This document shows, piece by piece, positions 7,603 through 64,000 of a stretch of 64,000 nucleotides of DNA. Made by a program: the position numbers and the translations under genes. The notes under the pieces were generated by a model. That model worked only from the letters and a program-made list of their open reading frames with translations, was not told the DNA's origin and did no database searches. Each line of letters starts with the position of its first letter. The stretch's first letter is position 1. The stretch is from an uncultured bacterium (GTDB taxonomy: Bacteria > Verrucomicrobiota > Verrucomicrobiia > Limisphaerales > UBA8199): contig CAVVMW010000018.1 of the NCBI GenBank assembly GCA_963749495.1, positions 62,240-126,239 of the forward strand. Reading direction: 5' to 3'.

Positions 7603-7637
7603 CAATCTCCCACTGGACGTGGCCGACGGGAACGAGG

Positions 7638-7905
7638 GGTGCGATTAAAACTGGCGGTCAGCCCACGGCGCCTTTTTGCCCCGGAGGGGCTTCCGACAAT
7701 AGCCCGGCGTTTCAACGCCGGGTGCGCGGACCCAAGGAGCAGGTCCGTCCCGAAGGGACGGCTGAAAGCAAGGAGCGTTCTCAGTCGTCCCTTCGGGACG
7801 AGGGTCGCTTTTGTGGCCTCCCCGGCGTTGAAACGCCGGGCTATTGTCAGATGTCCCTCCGGGACAAAACCCCCGAGGCGCATGCCCGACGCTTTTAATC
7901 GCACC
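7638..7905 (+). repeat. Family-3 MITE-like element (about 268 bp, TIR GGTGCGATTAAAA)
   Basis: Terminal inverted repeat GGTGCGATTAAAA...TTTTAATCGCACC. Internal hairpins CCCGGCGTTTCAACGCCGGG (x2), GTCCCGAAGGGAC and GTCCCTTCGGGAC. Other copies at 43421, 56099, 60138 and 63908. Confidence 0.9.
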
Positions 7906-8017
7906 CGGAACCGATGCGGCCATTGACGCGATTGATACGACACAATCCCGACTGCCGCGCGCGTTTTGTCATTTCCCCATCCGTGTTCTTCAGATGAAGC
8001 TTAGGCTAACGTTGGCC

Positions 8018-26394: not shown

Positions 26395-26599
26395 GATGGC
26401 ATCATGGCATCGGCATATCAGAGCGTCAAGCCCCTCTGGGCCGGATGGTCAAACGAAAGCTTCACCGTCGCGGGGCCTTTGTGCTAGCCCGCATATTTCA
26501 TAGCCCACCCGGCTTTTCGCGTTTCGGAGGATTTTTTGGAGACAAATCGGGCTGGGCGGCGCAGTTTTTTCCGTCTGGGCACTGATCAGGGCGCAACGG

Positions 26600-28145
26600 A
26601 GTCTTTAGTCAAACAAAAAGGCTGCCGCTGAAAACACCCCTCCCGTGACTCTTGAAACATTGACCCCATTTTTCTGCACTTAGCCCGGGGCCGGCGCCAA
26701 CGCCATCAGCCGCCGGTGGCACCGCCGAAACAGCGCTTGCAAGGGATAGGCGCTGCACATCTGCACATAGACCCGGCGCACGCTCACGCGCACCTGGGCC
26801 GCGATTTTCAGCAGCTTCACACGCAGGCTCCCAGCCGTCGCCCGCTCCAACTCCGTTCCCGCCAAGCCCTGCGTGCGCAAGCGCTCCATCAACAGGTAAG
26901 CAAACATGGCCTCCCACAATCGAAACTGATTGCTGGCCATATAATGCGTGCTCATCCGGTCGGCGTGTAAATCCAGCACTTGCTGCTTGAGCAGGTTTTC
27001 CATATCGCCCCGGGCGCAGTACAGTTCCTCATAAAGCCGGGCCGGACTGAAGCGGCTCTGTTGCTCATCCTCATCCTCATCGTTCTTGAAGCCTTCGGCA
27101 GGCAGATTGGTCACCACAAACCGTGGGTTTTCCCCTGCGTTCATCACTTCGGCTTTGCCGATCACCCGGCGCTCCCGACTCCAACTGTCGAGCGTCCGGT
27201 ATTGAAACTCAGCGAACTGGCGCACGCTGGCCGCACCGGTCAGACAGTGACGGGCCCGGGCTTGAGCCAGGGCCTGCCCAGCTTCTCAATTAACACCGAG
27301 TTCTTGGCCAAGCCCAGGCAATAGTAAATCCCCCGCTGGCTCTCGCACCAAGCCATAATCTCCTGCCGGCCAAAACCGCTGTCCCCGCGCACAATAATCC
27401 GCGCCTTGGGGCAACGCTTGCGAATCGCGGCCACTATCTTCTCCAGCGCGGGCACCGCTCCGTGGGCTGCCTCGTGCTCGGCGGTGCGCAGTTGCGCCCA
27501 TAGCGGGAAGTCCCCGACAAAGGCATAGAGCGGCAGATAACAATAGTCGTCATAGTAGGCGTTGAAGTGCCGCCCCTCCTGAAATCCGTGCAACCGATGG
27601 CCCATTGCGTCCAAATCCACCACGATCTCCTTGGCGCGTTTGGGCAGACAGCGCACCCCCATTTTCAGCAGGCAGGCTTCCACCTTGGCTGGGGCGTGCG
27701 GCAGTTTGTGGCAGCGCGTGTCTTTGTTATTGGATAATTCCAGCCGGTTGAGTGTGGAGGGCGCCGCCAGCGCGATGCCCCGGTGCTGCGGCAGCACCCT
27801 GTCTTGTCCCAGCGGATCGGTCTTGCCGCAGGCGGCAGCCAGCAGCGGGTCCAAGCGCAGGCGCTGGTGATCCTCAATGTCTTCGTAGCCCAGGGCCGTT
27901 CCGAAGATGCGCTGGCGCAGGAGTTCCTGCACCGAATGGTTTACCCAGTCGGGGTCACGCAGGTCGTAAAAACATTGCGCCAGTTCCGCCGTCACCCCGA
28001 GGTTAGTGTCGACCTGGCGCAGCAGCAGCGCGCCGGCATCACTGGAGAGGGCGCCGCCGGAGAAATCGGCTTGCACACGGCGAGGACCCAAGTCATCAAA
28101 GAGAATTGCTTGATTGGCAACGCACATGTAGTTAGTCTATAGGCT
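26600..28145 (-). mobile_element. IS1380-family insertion sequence (ends not resolved)
   Basis: Defined by the transposase reading frames. Terminal inverted repeats could not be identified with confidence, so the coordinates are approximate. Confidence 0.5.
26680..28127 (-). pseudogene. IS1380-family DDE transposase, frameshifted near 27283
   Basis: The N-part ends ...LAKNSVLIEKLGRPWLKPGPVTV*. The homologous continuation ALAQARARHCLTGAASVRQFAEFQYRTLDSWSRERRVIGKAEV...NPRFVVTN is in another frame. Confidence 0.75.
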
Positions 28146-28149
28146 AGAT

Positions 28150-28371
28150 ATGAAAAAGCAAGTAAAATATTCACTCAAAGTGCAGGCAATCCGTTCCAAG
28201 GGGCAGACCCCCAAGCTCTATGTGTATTTTCCGATCCCCCTGGCCGCCGCCATTGGGCTGGAGCCGGGAGAGCAGGTCGAGTGGGAGCTTTTGAACCGAA
28301 GCGAACTATATTTGGTGCGCCCGCACGCCCCGCCGCCGCGCGCTCGTCCCCGCGCTTTGGCAGTCGGCTGA
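28150..28371 (+). CDS. Small AbrB/SpoVT-like protein (possible orphan antitoxin or IS passenger)
   Basis: PIPLAAAIGLEPGEQVEWELLNRSELYLVRP resembles a swapped-hairpin AbrB domain. The gene has an AT-rich 5' end. Confidence 0.35.
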   Translation: MKKQVKYSLKVQAIRSKGQTPKLYVYFPIPLAAAIGLEPGEQVEWELLNRSELYLVRPHAPPPRARPRALAVG

Positions 28372-28513
28372 GCGTTCGACACCCTGTCGGTAACCCACCC
28401 GCCATCCTGCCAGTGGTCCAGGCCCGGTAAATCCGGCCCACCATGGCGATTTCATGCCAAATTTCGCGATCAACTATGAAATATGCGGGCTAGGCTGTCC
28501 CCCTTGTCTGGTT

Positions 28514-43356: not shown

Positions 43357-43420
43357 GACGTTCAATGTGCTAAAGCTTAGCACAGGTTCGACGGTCCGCA
43401 CCAGCGAATGTTCACTCGCG

Positions 43421-43687
43421 GGTGCGATTGAACGCGTGGGACATGCCCCTCGGGGTTTTGTCCCGGAGGGACATCTGACAATGGCCCGGCGTTTCAACGC
43501 CGGGGAGGCCACGAAAGGGACCCTCCTCCCGAAGGGACGACTGAGAACACTCCGTGCTTTGAGCCGTCCCTTCGGGACGGACCTGCTCCCTGGGTGCGCT
43601 CACCCGGCGTTGAAACGCCGGGCTATTGTCGGAAGCCCCTTCGGGGCAAAAGCTCGCCGTGGGCTGGCCGACCCTTTTCATCGCACC
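43421..43687 (-). repeat. Family-3 MITE-like element
   Basis: GGTGCGATTGAACGCG...CCTTTTCATCGCACC, reverse orientation relative to 7638-7905. Confidence 0.9.
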
Positions 43688-43761
43688 CCTCCGCGGGTCT
43701 TGACTGTCGCCCGGATGATGCCGCATCTTCTGGTCCGGACAGGTGCGACAGGTGATCTGAC

Positions 43762-56026: not shown

Positions 56027-56417
56027 CGGAGTGCGCCCGTCCCCGGGCGCAGCAGCGATGGAGCGGGCAGGCGCGCAGGTGTGTTTGACCGCTGCCCAGG
56101 TGCGATTAAAAGCGTGGGGCATGCGCCTCGGGAGTTTTGTCCCGGAGGGACACCTGACAATAGCCCGGCGTTTCAACGCCGGGGAGGCCACAAAAGGGAC
56201 CCTCGTCCCGAACGGACGAGTGACAACACTCCTGGCTTTCAGCCGTCCCTTCGGGACGGACCTGCTTTTTGGGGCCGCTCACCCGGCGTTGAAACGCCGG
56301 GCTATTGTCGGAAGCCCCTTCGGGGCAAAAAGGCGGCCTTGGCTGGCCGACAGTTTTAACAGCACCCCCGCTGCCGTGGCTCCGGACGTCGCTGCGCCCG
56401 GGGACGGGCGCACTCCG
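56027..56417. repeat. Family-4 foldback repeat split by a family-3 MITE
   Basis: The left part 56027-56098 and right part 56367-56417 together match the intact copy at 57790-57897. Confidence 0.9.
56099..56366 (-). repeat. Family-3 MITE-like element nested in a family-4 repeat
   Basis: GGTGCGATTAAAAGCG...CAGTTTTAACAGCACC, flanked by CCGCTGCC at 56089-56096 and 56368-56375. Confidence 0.9.
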
Positions 56418-60029: not shown

Positions 60030-60137
60030 CGTGCCGTCCCGCTGACGGGCACCCCAAATTGCAAAGCGCCTGGAGATGCGCGGCACGCCCGCGTTCTGGC
60101 TCCATGAGCGCCGCCCCGCCCGGCCGGGGGATTATTG

Positions 60138-60403
60138 GGTGCGATTAAAACTGTCGGTCAGCCCACGGCGCCTTTTTGCCCCGAAGGGGCTTCCGACAAT
60201 AGCCCGGCGTTTCAACGCCGGGTCAACGAACCGAAAGAGCAGGTCCGTCCCGAAGGGACGGCTGAAAGCAACGAGTGTTCTCAGTCGTCCCTTCGGGACG
60301 AGGGTCCCTTTTGTGGCCTCCCCGGCGTTGAAACGCCGGGCTATTGTCAGATGTCCCTCCGGGACAAAGCTCCAAGGGGCATGCCCACTCTTCTAATCGC
60401 ACC
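60138..60403 (+). repeat. Family-3 MITE-like element with a perfect 9-bp flanking duplication
   Basis: GGTGCGATTAAAACTG...CTTCTAATCGCACC. GGGATTATT occurs at 60128-60136 and 60405-60413. Confidence 0.9.
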
Positions 60404-60828
60404 TGGGATTATTCCAACCATTGACACCCCAACCCCTTGGGCTAGATTGCGGCGCATGATGACGCCGCGTAACGAGACACGACAGGGCCACCCGGCCGCG
60501 GGCGCTTCCCGACACTGCCCCCGGAGTGCCCTCGTCGCCGGGCTGAAAGCCCGAAATGTGACAGCCTGGGCTGGAGCGAGCTTGCGAGCGGAGGCCCAGG
60601 TCATCGGGCCGGAATCTGGCGCGCCCTGTAGGGGCGCCATAAGGTCCCGGCCCTACAGGCCGGGGCTTTTCGAGGGGCACTGGCTTACCCGGGCCTCCGC
60701 TCCGCTCCAGCCCGGGCCATCACATGGCGGGCCTTCGGCCCTGGGGCGCCGGGGGGGATTGGTCCGGGCCAGGCAGGAAATGCCGGACATCTCGATGGCG
60801 GCGGTGTATAGTGATCCGGATTGAGTTC

Positions 60829-63837: not shown

Positions 63838-63907
63838 CTTGTGCCAGCCGCAGGGCAAAGAGCAAGAATAGAAGTGCTTTCTCCCGAAAACCTGAATGGG
63901 CGAAACG

Positions 63908-64000
63908 GGCGCGATTAGAACTGTCGGCCCGCCGCCGGGGCCTCTTTGCCCCGAAGGGGTTTCCGAGAGTAGCCCGGCGTTTCAACTTTCAACGCCGGGT
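63908..64000 (+). repeat. Family-3 MITE-like element, partial (runs off the window)
   Basis: GGCGCGATTAGAACTGTCGG...GCCCCGAAGGGG...AGCCCGGCGTTTCAAC, a diverged left end. Confidence 0.8.

What the first reader, a model, noticed from the sequence alone, without database searches (positions are those of the whole stretch)
7638..7905. Family-3: a ~268-bp MITE-like element with 13-bp TIRs, 9-bp target duplications and UNCG-type hairpin loops; five copies in the window
Copies are at 7638, 43421, 56099, 60138 and 63908, in both orientations. All share the ends GGTGCGATTAAAA/TTTTAATCGCACC. Each is a quasi-palindrome built from two inverted ~45-bp modules (GACAATAGCCCGGCGTTTCAACGCCGGG). The copy at 60138 is flanked by a perfect direct repeat GGGATTATT (60128-60136 and 60405-60413). 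Other copies have degraded 9-bp repeats. Four small stems are capped by C(UUCG)G or C(UCCG)G loops, or by their complements. These would be exceptionally stable if transcribed, so an RNA-level role cannot be excluded. No autonomous partner with matching ends is present in this window.
Basis: seen in the sequence. Interest (0 to 1): 0.6.

Follow-up and report, generated by a model that had tools for sequence, protein, structure and literature searches.

The report
Promoter-seeking mini-transposon carrying hairpin repeats
The repeat is a real 270-bp non-coding "jumping" element that lands 16 bases upstream of gene promoters, and its interior is a pair of hairpin modules that a public database lists as a small RNA of unknown function but which look like recognition sites of a second, unrelated transposase.

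Summary
The element is 270 bp, not 268, with about 24-bp terminal inverted repeats (GGGTGCGATTAAAACTGTCGGTCA). It has about 80 full-length copies in this 11.4-Mb verrucomicrobial genome. The 9-bp target duplication is statistically secure, and an empty-site test proves it.

It has two parts of different origin.

1. **Ends and insertion behaviour.** These match a clade of ISKra4-family (Mutator-like) insertion sequences. Autonomous 1.4–1.5-kb elements with the same ends occur in a soil metagenome contig and in 22 of 201 genomes of the same order, but not in this assembly. Like the MITE, they make 9-bp duplications and insert with a −35-like TTG exactly 17 nt beyond an end.

2. **Interior.** It is an inverted pair of arms, each holding one Rfam RF01687 (Acido-Lenti-1) motif. 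The genome has 333 such motifs, almost always in convergent pairs. One IS200-type Y1 (tyrosine) transposase gene sits between such a pair here. In 15 of 20 homologous loci from three phyla, RF01687 motifs flank the gene (both sides in four). This resembles the known REP/RAYT and "TIRtron" arrangements.

RNA-seq could not be consulted, so an RNA role is not excluded.

The parts
7637..7906 (+). MITE copy 1, 270 bp (the finding)
   Evidence: Read directly. It served as the reference for the genome census. It folds as one long foldback: RNA -187 kcal/mol, z = -13.7.
7637..7660 (+). Left terminal inverted repeat, GGGTGCGATTAAAACTGGCGGTCA
   Evidence: 23 of 24 bases match the left end of the autonomous element in L155, GGGTGCGATTAAAACTGTCGGTCA, which is also the left end of the MITE consensus.
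7883..7906 (-). Right terminal inverted repeat (reverse complement GGGTGCGATTAAAAGCGTCGGGCA)
   Evidence: It shows the same left/right asymmetry (AAAACTG versus AAAAGCG) as the two ends of L155.
7628..7636 (.). Left copy of the 9-bp target duplication (GGGAACGAG), degraded
   Evidence: 6 of 9 bases match 7907-7915 (GGAACCGAT). The register comes from the statistics.
7907..7915 (.). Right copy of the 9-bp target duplication
7677..7722 (-). Rfam RF01687 (Acido-Lenti-1) module, left arm
   Evidence: cmscan 38.2 bits, gathering threshold 37.
7821..7866 (+). Rfam RF01687 module, right arm
   Evidence: cmscan 44.9 bits.
7745..7804 (.). Two central CGTC-type hairpins (CCGTCCCGAAGGGACGG and GTCGTCCCTTCGGGACGAG) with a ~25-nt centre
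   Evidence: Read directly. At C24:85868-86314 the Y1 gene occupies exactly this centre.
7923..7928 (+). -35-like TTGACG, starting 17 nt beyond the right end
   Evidence: Positional enrichment of TTG at 16-18: 22 of 63 right flanks and 16 of 63 left flanks, against a 5.7% background (p = 2e-12).
43420..43688 (-). MITE copy 2
   Evidence: RF01687 modules at 43459-43504 (-) and 43603-43648 (+).
56098..56367 (-). MITE copy 3, nested inside a copy of an unrelated ~155-bp repeat. Duplication CCGCTGCCC / CCGCTGCCG.
   Evidence: The rebuilt empty site matches uninterrupted paralogues without gaps only when 9 bp are removed: 76 hits at k = 9, none at any other k. RF01687 at 56138-56183 (-) and 56282-56327 (+).
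60137..60404 (+). MITE copy 4, with the perfect duplication GGGATTATT (60128-60136 and 60405-60413)
   Evidence: RF01687 at 60177-60222 (-) and 60321-60366 (+).
60421..60448 (+). Promoter-like TTGACA-N16-TAGATT, starting 17 nt beyond the right end of copy 4
   Evidence: Read directly. Of 38 flanks with a -35-like TTG, 12 have TAnnnT at a 16-18 nt spacer, against a 2.8% control rate (p = 3e-10).
63907..64000 (+). MITE copy 5, a diverged and rearranged copy cut by the window end
   Evidence: In the genome the left half (about 160 bp) is intact, the right arm is replaced by another foldback, and a degenerate right end lies near C18:126478-126490.

Best explanation
The element is a chimeric non-autonomous transposon.

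**Outer shell (shown).** Its 24-bp inverted repeats and its insertion behaviour belong to a clade of ISKra4-family (prokaryotic Mutator-like, DDE) insertion sequences. A transposase of that clade, supplied in trans, would bind the two ends and insert the element with a 9-bp staggered cut. The cut is placed so that the element's end lies 16 nt upstream of a sigma-70-type -35 box. Because the two ends are nearly identical, the element lands in either orientation. The copies are about 11% diverged from each other and no matching transposase gene is in the assembly. I infer an old burst whose helper has been lost or not assembled.

**Interior (geometry shown, mechanism inferred).** The roughly 220-bp interior is not IS-derived. 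It is an inverted doublet of arms. Each arm is a CGTC-type hairpin followed by the two-hairpin Rfam motif RF01687 (Acido-Lenti-1). The same doublets exist without these ends, or with other ends, and a single IS200-type Y1/HUH transposase gene sits between such arms. The arms are therefore most likely the single-stranded-DNA hairpin recognition sites of that Y1 transposase, in the manner of REP or 'TIR' sequences. On this reading the covariation that made them look like a structured RNA reflects selection on DNA hairpins.

How the doublet came to lie between ISKra4-type ends is unknown.
For: **MITE status**
- 9-bp duplication in a single register, far above control.
- The empty site is restored only by removing 9 bp.
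- 73 full copies, 36 on the + strand and 37 on the - strand.
- Copy lengths vary from 265 to 272 bp, so no reading frame is kept.

**Helper family**
- L155 is a 1478-bp element. Its ends are GGGTGCGATTAAAACTGTCGGTCA and GGGTGCGATTAAAAGCGTCGGTCA, with the same left/right asymmetry as the MITE. It encodes a 362-aa protein whose best family is NF033572 ISKra4 (185 bits, E = 3e-54).
- Homologues occur in 22 of 201 genomes of the order. The examined loci hold 1.18-1.49-kb elements (five of six 1.39-1.49 kb) with ends of the same type.
- In G074, 10 of 10 copies have perfect 9-bp duplications, and 9 of 10 have TTG exactly at position 17 beyond an end.
- The MITE shows the same position: TTG at 16-18 in 22 of 63 right and 16 of 63 left flanks, against 5.7% background (p = 2e-12). 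12 of 38 such flanks also have TAnnnT at the proper spacing, against 2.8%.
- Published properties agree: p-MULT elements make 8-9-bp repeats, and ISKra4-group elements insert 13-17 bp upstream of sigma-A promoters (PMC3942029).

**Interior**
- RF01687 scores above threshold on both arms of every complete window copy.
- The genome holds 333 modules, with 145 convergent pairs, most 90-101 nt apart (16 wider, up to 560 nt), and only one pair in any other arrangement.
- The best-scoring of 24 Y1 genes lies between such a pair.
- 15 of 20 homologous loci from Verrucomicrobiota, Acidobacteriota and Planctomycetota have flanking RF01687 motifs: on both sides of the gene in four, on one side in most others, and with irregular strands in two.
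- Across 40 relatives, presence of the Y1 clade tracks RF01687 abundance (Mann-Whitney p = 8e-4, rho = 0.62).
- Pairing is 99% canonical, against 34-46% in shifted controls, and 6 of 11 pairs show two-sided compensatory changes.
Against: - No helper with these ends is in the own assembly, which is 88% complete. Mobilisation was therefore never observed here.
- The L155 transposase falls just below NCBIfam's equivalog cut-off (185 bits against 205), and that copy has no visible target duplication.
- Only about half of the MITE copies retain a -35-like TTG at the expected place. Promoter function was not tested.
- The Y1 protein scores as IS200-type (63 bits, cut-off 55) and not as the curated RAYT family (21 bits against 80). 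It is not single-copy in all congeners.
- No binding or cleavage data exist.
Confidence: 0.75

Rival explanations
1. The modules are genes for a structured small RNA (Acido-Lenti-1 as originally proposed). The 270-bp unit spreads or persists because of an RNA-level function, for example very stable UUCG-capped hairpins acting as terminators, stabilisers or a long double-stranded RNA.
For: - The modules score above the Rfam gathering threshold.
- Covariation is strong.
- The predicted fold is extremely stable (z = -13.7).
Against: - The modules occur almost only as convergent inverted pairs, so there is no preferred strand relative to genes.
- There are hundreds of copies per genome.
- They flank a Y1 transposase gene in three phyla.
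- Loop sequences change in concert on the two arms (GAAG/CTTC to GTAG/CTAC). This is expected if both arms must match one protein's specificity, and is not needed for local RNA hairpins.
- The elements sit upstream of outward-facing promoters, so those promoters do not transcribe them.
Confidence: 0.1
2. The whole 270-bp unit is a REPIN moved by the Y1 transposase alone. On this view the terminal repeats are just the outer part of the palindrome, and the flanking 9-bp repeats are a by-product.
For: - The unit is one long palindrome.
- A Y1 gene lies between arms, and at that locus the right side runs on into a MITE-type end.
Against: - By established knowledge of the IS200/IS605 family, HUH single-strand transposition leaves no target duplication.
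- The same 24-bp ends bound DDE-transposase-encoding elements and small elements with unrelated interiors.
- The Y1 loci in congeners lack these ends.
- The core also occurs with other ends.
- The position-17 promoter offset equals that of the DDE elements.
Confidence: 0.05
3. The resident, currently active ISKra4-type element ISb mobilises the MITE. ISb is 1836 bp and present in about 12 copies at more than 99.5% identity.
For: - It shares the terminal heptamer GGGTGCG and an A-run.
- It makes 9-bp duplications.
- Its transposase is NF033572 ISKra4 at 247 bits (cut-off 205).
- It also targets promoters.
Against: - Its inverted repeats differ from the MITE's beyond base 7.
- Its two ends are asymmetric and it inserts in one orientation only, with TTG at position 28 rather than 17 (9 of 12 informative right ends, 1 of 12 left ends).
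- Its transposase is only about 25% identical to that of the clade carrying the MITE's ends.
- The MITE copies are old (88.7% identity) whereas ISb copies are nearly identical.
Confidence: 0.08

Closest known systems
ISKra4-group insertion sequences, with ISLre2 and TnGBS (prokaryotic Mutator-like transposases; Guérillot et al. 2014, PMC3942029)
   Same: Both make 9-bp direct repeats. Both have inverted repeats in the 18-39 bp range with G...C tips. Both insert at a fixed short distance upstream of sigma-A -35 boxes (16 nt here; 13-17 bp published). The best family of the transposase in autonomous relatives is NF033572.
   Different: The element here has no transposase. Its interior is not IS sequence but a hairpin-repeat doublet. 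Insertion occurs in both orientations because the two ends are symmetric. I did not find MITEs of this family in the papers searched.
REPIN-RAYT systems (Bertels & Rainey 2011, PMC3116915) and REP sequences
   Same: The interior is two inverted hairpin units separated by a short spacer. There are hundreds of doublets against one flanked Y1 gene. The Y1 gene is flanked by the same units in inverted orientation. Its 3' flank is homologous in two other MAGs with 89-91% identical Y1 proteins, which suggests vertical inheritance.
   Different: Each unit is a 46-nt two-hairpin motif plus a third hairpin, not a 20-40-nt single palindrome. I saw no GTAG tag. The protein fails the curated RAYT model (21 bits against 80) and scores as IS200-type. 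Here the doublet also carries DDE-type ends and duplications.
TIRtrons / TIRYTs (Di Nocera et al. 2013, PMC3733652)
   Same: These are Y1 transposase genes flanked by long inverted repeats, some of them double-palindromic, that can form moderately abundant repeat families. A sharply defined group occurs in Acidobacteria, one of the phyla where RF01687 was described.
   Different: That paper makes no link to RF01687. I did not test whether its acidobacterial repeats are the same sequences. The paper reports CGTC-tagged palindromes as lacking a dedicated transposase, whereas here CGTC-type hairpins lie next to a Y1 gene.
Rfam RF01687, Acido-Lenti-1 RNA (Weinberg et al. 2010, PMC2864571)
   Same: Each arm of every complete copy passes the family's gathering score.
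   Different: Rfam lists it as a gene for an sRNA. Here it is a module of mobile repeats, always paired in inverted orientation, in Verrucomicrobiota and Planctomycetota as well as Acidobacteria.

Membership tests
MITE (non-autonomous DDE-type transposon) | Terminal inverted repeats | tested here: met
   About 24 bp at both ends, conserved across 63 or more copies.
MITE (non-autonomous DDE-type transposon) | Target-site duplication of fixed length | tested here: met
   9 bp: 26 of 63 copies with at most 1 mismatch, against 0.46 expected. Only one register gives a signal.
MITE (non-autonomous DDE-type transposon) | Empty sites exist, giving proof of insertion | tested here: met
   76 gap-free paralogous matches appear only when 9 bp are removed. 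Orthologous empty sites in congeners were inconclusive.
MITE (non-autonomous DDE-type transposon) | An autonomous element with the same ends encodes a transposase | tested here: met
   Found outside this genome: L155, and the G015, G094 and G074 elements. Absent from the own assembly.
MITE (non-autonomous DDE-type transposon) | No coding capacity | tested here: inconclusive
   Copies differ in length (265-272 bp), which breaks any frame. The ORFs across the element are the spurious kind expected in GC-rich palindromes. No homology search of these ORFs was run.
ISKra4 family (p-MULT 4) | Transposase matches NF033572 above the curated cut-off | tested here: inconclusive
   The helper-clade protein scores 185 bits against a cut-off of 205. 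It is by far the best family (E = 3e-54), and the protein is N-terminally shorter than the profile.
ISKra4 family (p-MULT 4) | 8-9-bp direct repeats and 18-39-bp inverted repeats | tested here: met
   9-bp repeats and 24-bp inverted repeats, in both the MITE and the autonomous relatives. Published range in PMC3942029.
ISKra4 family (p-MULT 4) | Insertion at a fixed distance upstream of sigma-A promoters (a subset of the ISKra4 group) | tested here: met
   TTG at position 17. Promoter activity itself was not tested.
Rfam RF01687 Acido-Lenti-1 | Covariance-model score at or above the gathering threshold | tested here: met
   38-46 bits against 37, for 8 hits in the window.
Rfam RF01687 Acido-Lenti-1 | Expressed as a discrete small RNA | not testable with these tools
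REPIN-RAYT | Inverted doublets of a hairpin unit, many per genome | tested here: met
   145 convergent pairs.
REPIN-RAYT | The same units flank a Y1 transposase gene in inverted orientation | tested here: met
   Own genome. 15 of 20 homologous loci in three phyla have flanking units, on both sides of the gene in four of them.
REPIN-RAYT | The protein belongs to the RAYT sequence family | tested here: not met
   NF047646 scores 21 bits against a cut-off of 80. NF033573 (IS200/IS605) scores 63 against 55.
REPIN-RAYT | Single-copy, vertically inherited transposase | tested here: inconclusive
   There is one copy of this clade in the own genome. The 3' flank is homologous at the Y1 loci L051 and L052 (MAGs with 91% and 89% identical proteins), though these loci were not matched to G002/G003. 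G003, G002, G021 and G038 each have 2-4 copies.
REPIN-RAYT | No target duplication on insertion | tested here: not met
   The 270-bp family has 9-bp duplications. I attribute these to its DDE-type ends. Core-only doublets were not tested.

The most novel reading that the evidence does not exclude
RF01687 / Acido-Lenti-1 is not an sRNA. It is the single-stranded-DNA recognition hairpin set of a widespread clade of IS200-like Y1 transposases in Verrucomicrobiota, Acidobacteriota and Planctomycetota. In this lineage a doublet of such sites was captured between the ends of a promoter-targeting Mutator-like IS. The result is a 'double parasite' that two unrelated transposases can act on, and that places very stable foldback hairpins exactly 16 nt upstream of dozens of promoters. 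There the hairpins may insulate those promoters from upstream read-through.
Probability: 0.3. Interest if true: 0.75.

Novelty: new variant of a known kind. Interest (0 to 1): 0.62.

Why it matters
[quoted passage not shown] This work offers a concrete, testable explanation: its covariation may reflect DNA hairpins read by a transposase rather than an RNA structure. This is a general caution for RNA discovery based on covariation.

**A new kind of cargo for a rare behaviour.** Fixed-distance insertion upstream of promoters is known for TnGBS, ISLre2 and ISKra4 elements. Here a non-coding miniature derivative does the same. Its copies therefore act as ready-made markers of promoter positions in an uncultured verrucomicrobial lineage.

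**Modular assembly of repeats.** The element documents a chimera between two unrelated mobility systems, one HUH/Y1 and one DDE. This bears on how bacterial repeat families are built from parts.

Tried and rejected
**Searches for a helper in the own genome: nothing found**
- Pairing of ends at 300-8000 bp gave only 3-mismatch chance pairs around ordinary genes.
- Unpaired good ends that run into non-MITE sequence hold no transposase remnants.
- Comparing the ends of all multi-copy repeats of 600 bp or more found only ISb, ISa and ISc, which share the heptamer GGGTGCG.
- Two ISKra4-type paralogues lying next to MITE fragments ('ISd', C6:458116-459676 and C6:1167534-1169320) have their own ends (GGGCGCATGACGGAATTC...) and no duplications. 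I rejected them as helper.
- ISKra4-type loci in congeners lack the MITE end.

**Other checks**
- ISb was rejected as helper because its promoter offset is 28 rather than 17, it inserts in one orientation only, and its inner inverted repeat differs.
- The orthologous empty-site search in congeners, for the copy at 60137, matched only other repeats. It is inconclusive.
- A second family with the same core and other ends (about 281 bp, TTSGACAATGTTAGATTTCC...) appears to have 4-bp NTAN flanking repeats. With only 9 copies (8 independent insertions, 2 of them exact) this stays tentative.
- Most of the 15-mer hits in the metagenome scan are chance single matches.

Full report
**1. The observation**

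The sequence at 7638-7905 is as described. The 13-mer end GGTGCGATTAAAA occurs 10 times in the window with up to 2 mismatches, against 0.58 expected. The copies at 7638 and 60138 (+), 43421 and 56099 (-), and a partial copy at 63908 align over their whole length. The repeat GGGATTATT flanks the copy at 60138 exactly as stated.

The window is contig C18:62240-126239 of an 11.37-Mb, 31-contig assembly with 63% G+C. The closest relatives of one of its genes are Verrucomicrobiota MAGs of the subdivision 3 / Limisphaerales type.

Genome-wide there are 73 full copies at 85% identity or more (36 on +, 37 on -), 7 more diverged full copies, and about 100 partial or variant loci. Mean pairwise identity of the full copies is 88.7%.

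**2. True limits and target duplication**

I scanned every offset and repeat length against permuted flanks. In that register 12 of 63 copies are exact and 26 of 63 have at most 1 mismatch, against 0.2 and 0.46 expected. The element is therefore 270 bp, GGGTGCG...CGCACCC.

The copy at 56098-56367 lies inside a copy of an unrelated ~155-bp repeat. I joined its flanks after removing k bases, for k from 0 to 12. Gap-free matches to uninterrupted paralogues appear only at k = 9 (76 hits), and none at any other k. A second copy behaves the same way. This is direct evidence of insertion with a 9-bp duplication.

**3. The interior is a known Rfam family**

A gathering-threshold Rfam scan assigns each of the two inverted ~46-nt modules in all four complete window copies to RF01687, Acido-Lenti-1 (38-46 bits, threshold 37). 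That family was proposed in 2010 as a probable non-coding RNA of Acidobacteria and Lentisphaerae (PMC2864571). [quoted passage not shown]

An iterated nhmmer profile finds 333 modules in this genome. Neighbouring modules form 145 convergent (- then +) pairs, most 90-101 nt apart (16 are wider, up to 560 nt), and only one pair has any other arrangement. Of the 333 modules, 160 lie in 270-bp copies. The rest lie in other contexts.

Across the sub-families the stems covary:
- CCCGGCG/CGCCGGG, CCCAACG/CGTTGGG and CCCAATG/CATTGGG.
- Pairing is 99% canonical, against 34-46% in shifted controls.
- 6 of 11 pairs show two-sided compensatory changes.

Loop sequences also change in concert on the two arms, GAAG/CTTC to GTAG/CTAC. 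As single-stranded RNA or DNA the whole element folds into one long foldback (z = -13.7 and -12.4).

**4. A Y1 transposase sits between such arms**

I tested this independently.

The genome has 24 Pfam Y1_Tnp hits. Exactly one, the best-scoring, lies between a convergent module pair (C24:85779-85823 and 86366-86409). Read directly, the locus is: module, hairpin GTCCCGAAAGGGAC, a 148-aa HUH/Y1 ORF, hairpin GTCCCTTCGGGAC, module. The gene replaces the ~25-nt centre of the repeat core. The protein scores as IS200/IS605-type (63 bits, cut-off 55) and not as the curated RAYT family (21 bits against 80).

Homologues at 62-91% identity occur in Verrucomicrobiota, Acidobacteriota and Planctomycetota. 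In 15 of 20 loci sampled across these phyla, RF01687 modules above threshold flank the gene. Where the arrangement is regular, a minus-strand module lies about 50-270 nt upstream and a plus-strand module about 20-50 nt downstream. Four loci (L097, L115, L117, L124) have both, most have one, and L066 and L120 differ in strand.

Two loci from other MAGs with 91% and 89% identical proteins (L051, L052) show the same layout, with a homologous 3' flank and no MITE end. This suggests vertical inheritance.

Across 40 relatives, genomes with a close homologue have a median of 34.5 RF01687 hits, against 2.5 in the others (Mann-Whitney p = 8e-4; Spearman rho = 0.62). The association is imperfect: some fragmented MAGs have many modules and only distant Y1 paralogues.

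This layout is that of REP/RAYT systems and of the 'TIRtrons' of Di Nocera et al. 2013, who described a sharply defined acidobacterial group of such Y1 genes. The full 270-bp element is confined to the genus (G003 at 81-90% identity, G002 at 82%). The inner core, positions 44-232, is found across the family and the order.

**5. The ends belong to an ISKra4-family clade that targets promoters**

No longer element with these ends exists in the assembly.

A resident IS, ISb, shares the terminal heptamer GGGTGCG and makes 9-bp duplications. It is 1836 bp and present in about 12 copies at more than 99.5% identity. Its transposase is NF033572 ISKra4 at 247 bits (cut-off 205).

While reading the flanks I noticed TTGAC about 17 nt beyond many ends. 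Quantified:
- TTG starts at positions 16-18 in 22 of 63 right flanks and 16 of 63 left flanks, against a 5.7% background (p = 2e-12). 33 of 63 copies have it on at least one side.
- 12 of 38 such flanks have TAnnnT at a 16-18-nt spacer, against 2.8% in controls (p = 3e-10). An example is TTGACA-N16-TAGATT at 60421-60448.

Guérillot et al. 2014 report that prokaryotic Mutator-like elements make 8-9-bp repeats. They also report that ISKra4-group, ISLre2 and TnGBS elements insert 13-17 bp upstream of sigma-A promoters, with asymmetry between the two inverted repeats setting the orientation.

ISb behaves this way, but with TTG at position 28 and only beyond its right end: 9 of 12 informative right ends, against 1 of 12 left ends. 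ISb is therefore a relative and not the helper.

A metagenome scan for the 15-nt end returned L155, a 1478-bp element.
- Its ends, GGGTGCGATTAAAACTGTCGGTCA and GGGTGCGATTAAAAGCGTCGGTCA, reproduce the MITE's left and right ends, including their difference.
- It encodes a 362-aa protein whose best family is ISKra4 (185 bits, E = 3e-54, just under the cut-off).
- TTGACG-N16-TAAAAT starts 18 nt beyond its right end.

About 15 other contigs carry much the same terminus (about 20-24 nt conserved), with a partner end 82-220 nt away and unrelated interiors. These are other miniature derivatives.

The own genome has no close homologue of this transposase (25-26% identity to ISb and ISd). However, 22 of 201 genomes of the order do, and the examined loci hold 1.18-1.49-kb elements (five of six 1.39-1.49 kb) with ends of the same type. 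In G074, all 10 identical copies have perfect 9-bp duplications, and 9 of 10 have TTG exactly at position 17 beyond one end or the other. This is the MITE's signature.

**6. Synthesis**

The family-3 element is a MITE of an ISKra4-family, promoter-targeting IS clade. Its cargo is a REPIN-like doublet of RF01687 arms, and those arms are associated with an IS200-type Y1 transposase.

- **Shown:** the limits, the duplication, the insertion, the copy number, the identity of the ends with autonomous elements, the shared positional signature, the geometry of the arms, their association with the Y1 gene, and the covariation.
- **Inferred:** that the L155-type transposase moved the copies; that the TTG boxes are working promoters; that the Y1 enzyme recognises the arms as DNA hairpins; and how the chimera arose.

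Noticed in passing
genome C7:206411-208246 and about 11 other sites (e.g. C18:195473-197305, outside the window): ISb is an apparently active ISKra4-family IS: 1836 bp, copies 99.5-99.9% identical, 9-bp duplications. Its right end lies exactly 27 nt upstream of a -35-like TTG in 9 of 12 informative insertions, always in the same orientation. Two sites hold tandem ISb-ISb pairs sharing the duplication AACCCCAGG.
   Followed up: partly
genome C16:49539-49819, C5:49714-50020, C23:169489-169769 and 6 more: A second small family (about 281 bp, 9 copies) carries the same RF01687 doublet core between quite different ends (TTSGACAATGTTAGATTTCCTCGGAAA). It apparently has 4-bp NTAN flanking repeats, which suggests capture by a different (IS5-like?) transposition system.
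   Followed up: partly
genome C19:228143, C1:527509, C4:428195, C22:275834, C21:899331: Five further small Y1/HUH transposase genes have no RF01687 modules nearby. The genome also has at least six unrelated foldback repeat families, so each may be a separate repeat/Y1 pair.
   Followed up: no
One copy served as the insertion target of the MITE.
   Followed up: partly
genome C22:459836-461330 (about 1.5 kb) and C6:652077-653085 (about 1.0 kb), 17-50 hits: These multi-copy elements have ISKra4-like ends (GGGTGCGAGACAAAATAGTAACC) but no transposase. One carries a 180-aa ORF that, from memory, resembles the GxxExxY protein family.
   Followed up: no
G074 (10 copies), G065, G186, G058, G153: The helper-clade transposase reading frame contains one in-frame TAA in several unrelated genomes, including all 10 identical and evidently recent copies in G074. 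This may be programmed recoding or frameshifting.
   Followed up: no
genome C6:457996-459676 and C6:1167156-1169320: Two copies of another ISKra4-type IS ('ISd', ends GGGCGCATGACGGAATTCTTCGG) lack target duplications. Each lies 60-300 nt from a truncated MITE end in the same relative orientation, which may be a sign of past rearrangement.
   Followed up: partly
window 26474-28505 (C18:88713-90744): One copy of a ~2.03-kb repeat that has about 10 copies in the genome, presumably another IS family.
   Followed up: no
metagenome loci L131, L133, L134, L135, L143, L151, L165, L178, L186, L188, L189, L200: Small elements (about 140-220 bp) bounded by much the same terminus as the MITE (about 20-24 nt conserved) but with unrelated interiors. 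The IS clade has spawned several MITE families in environmental bacteria.
   Followed up: partly
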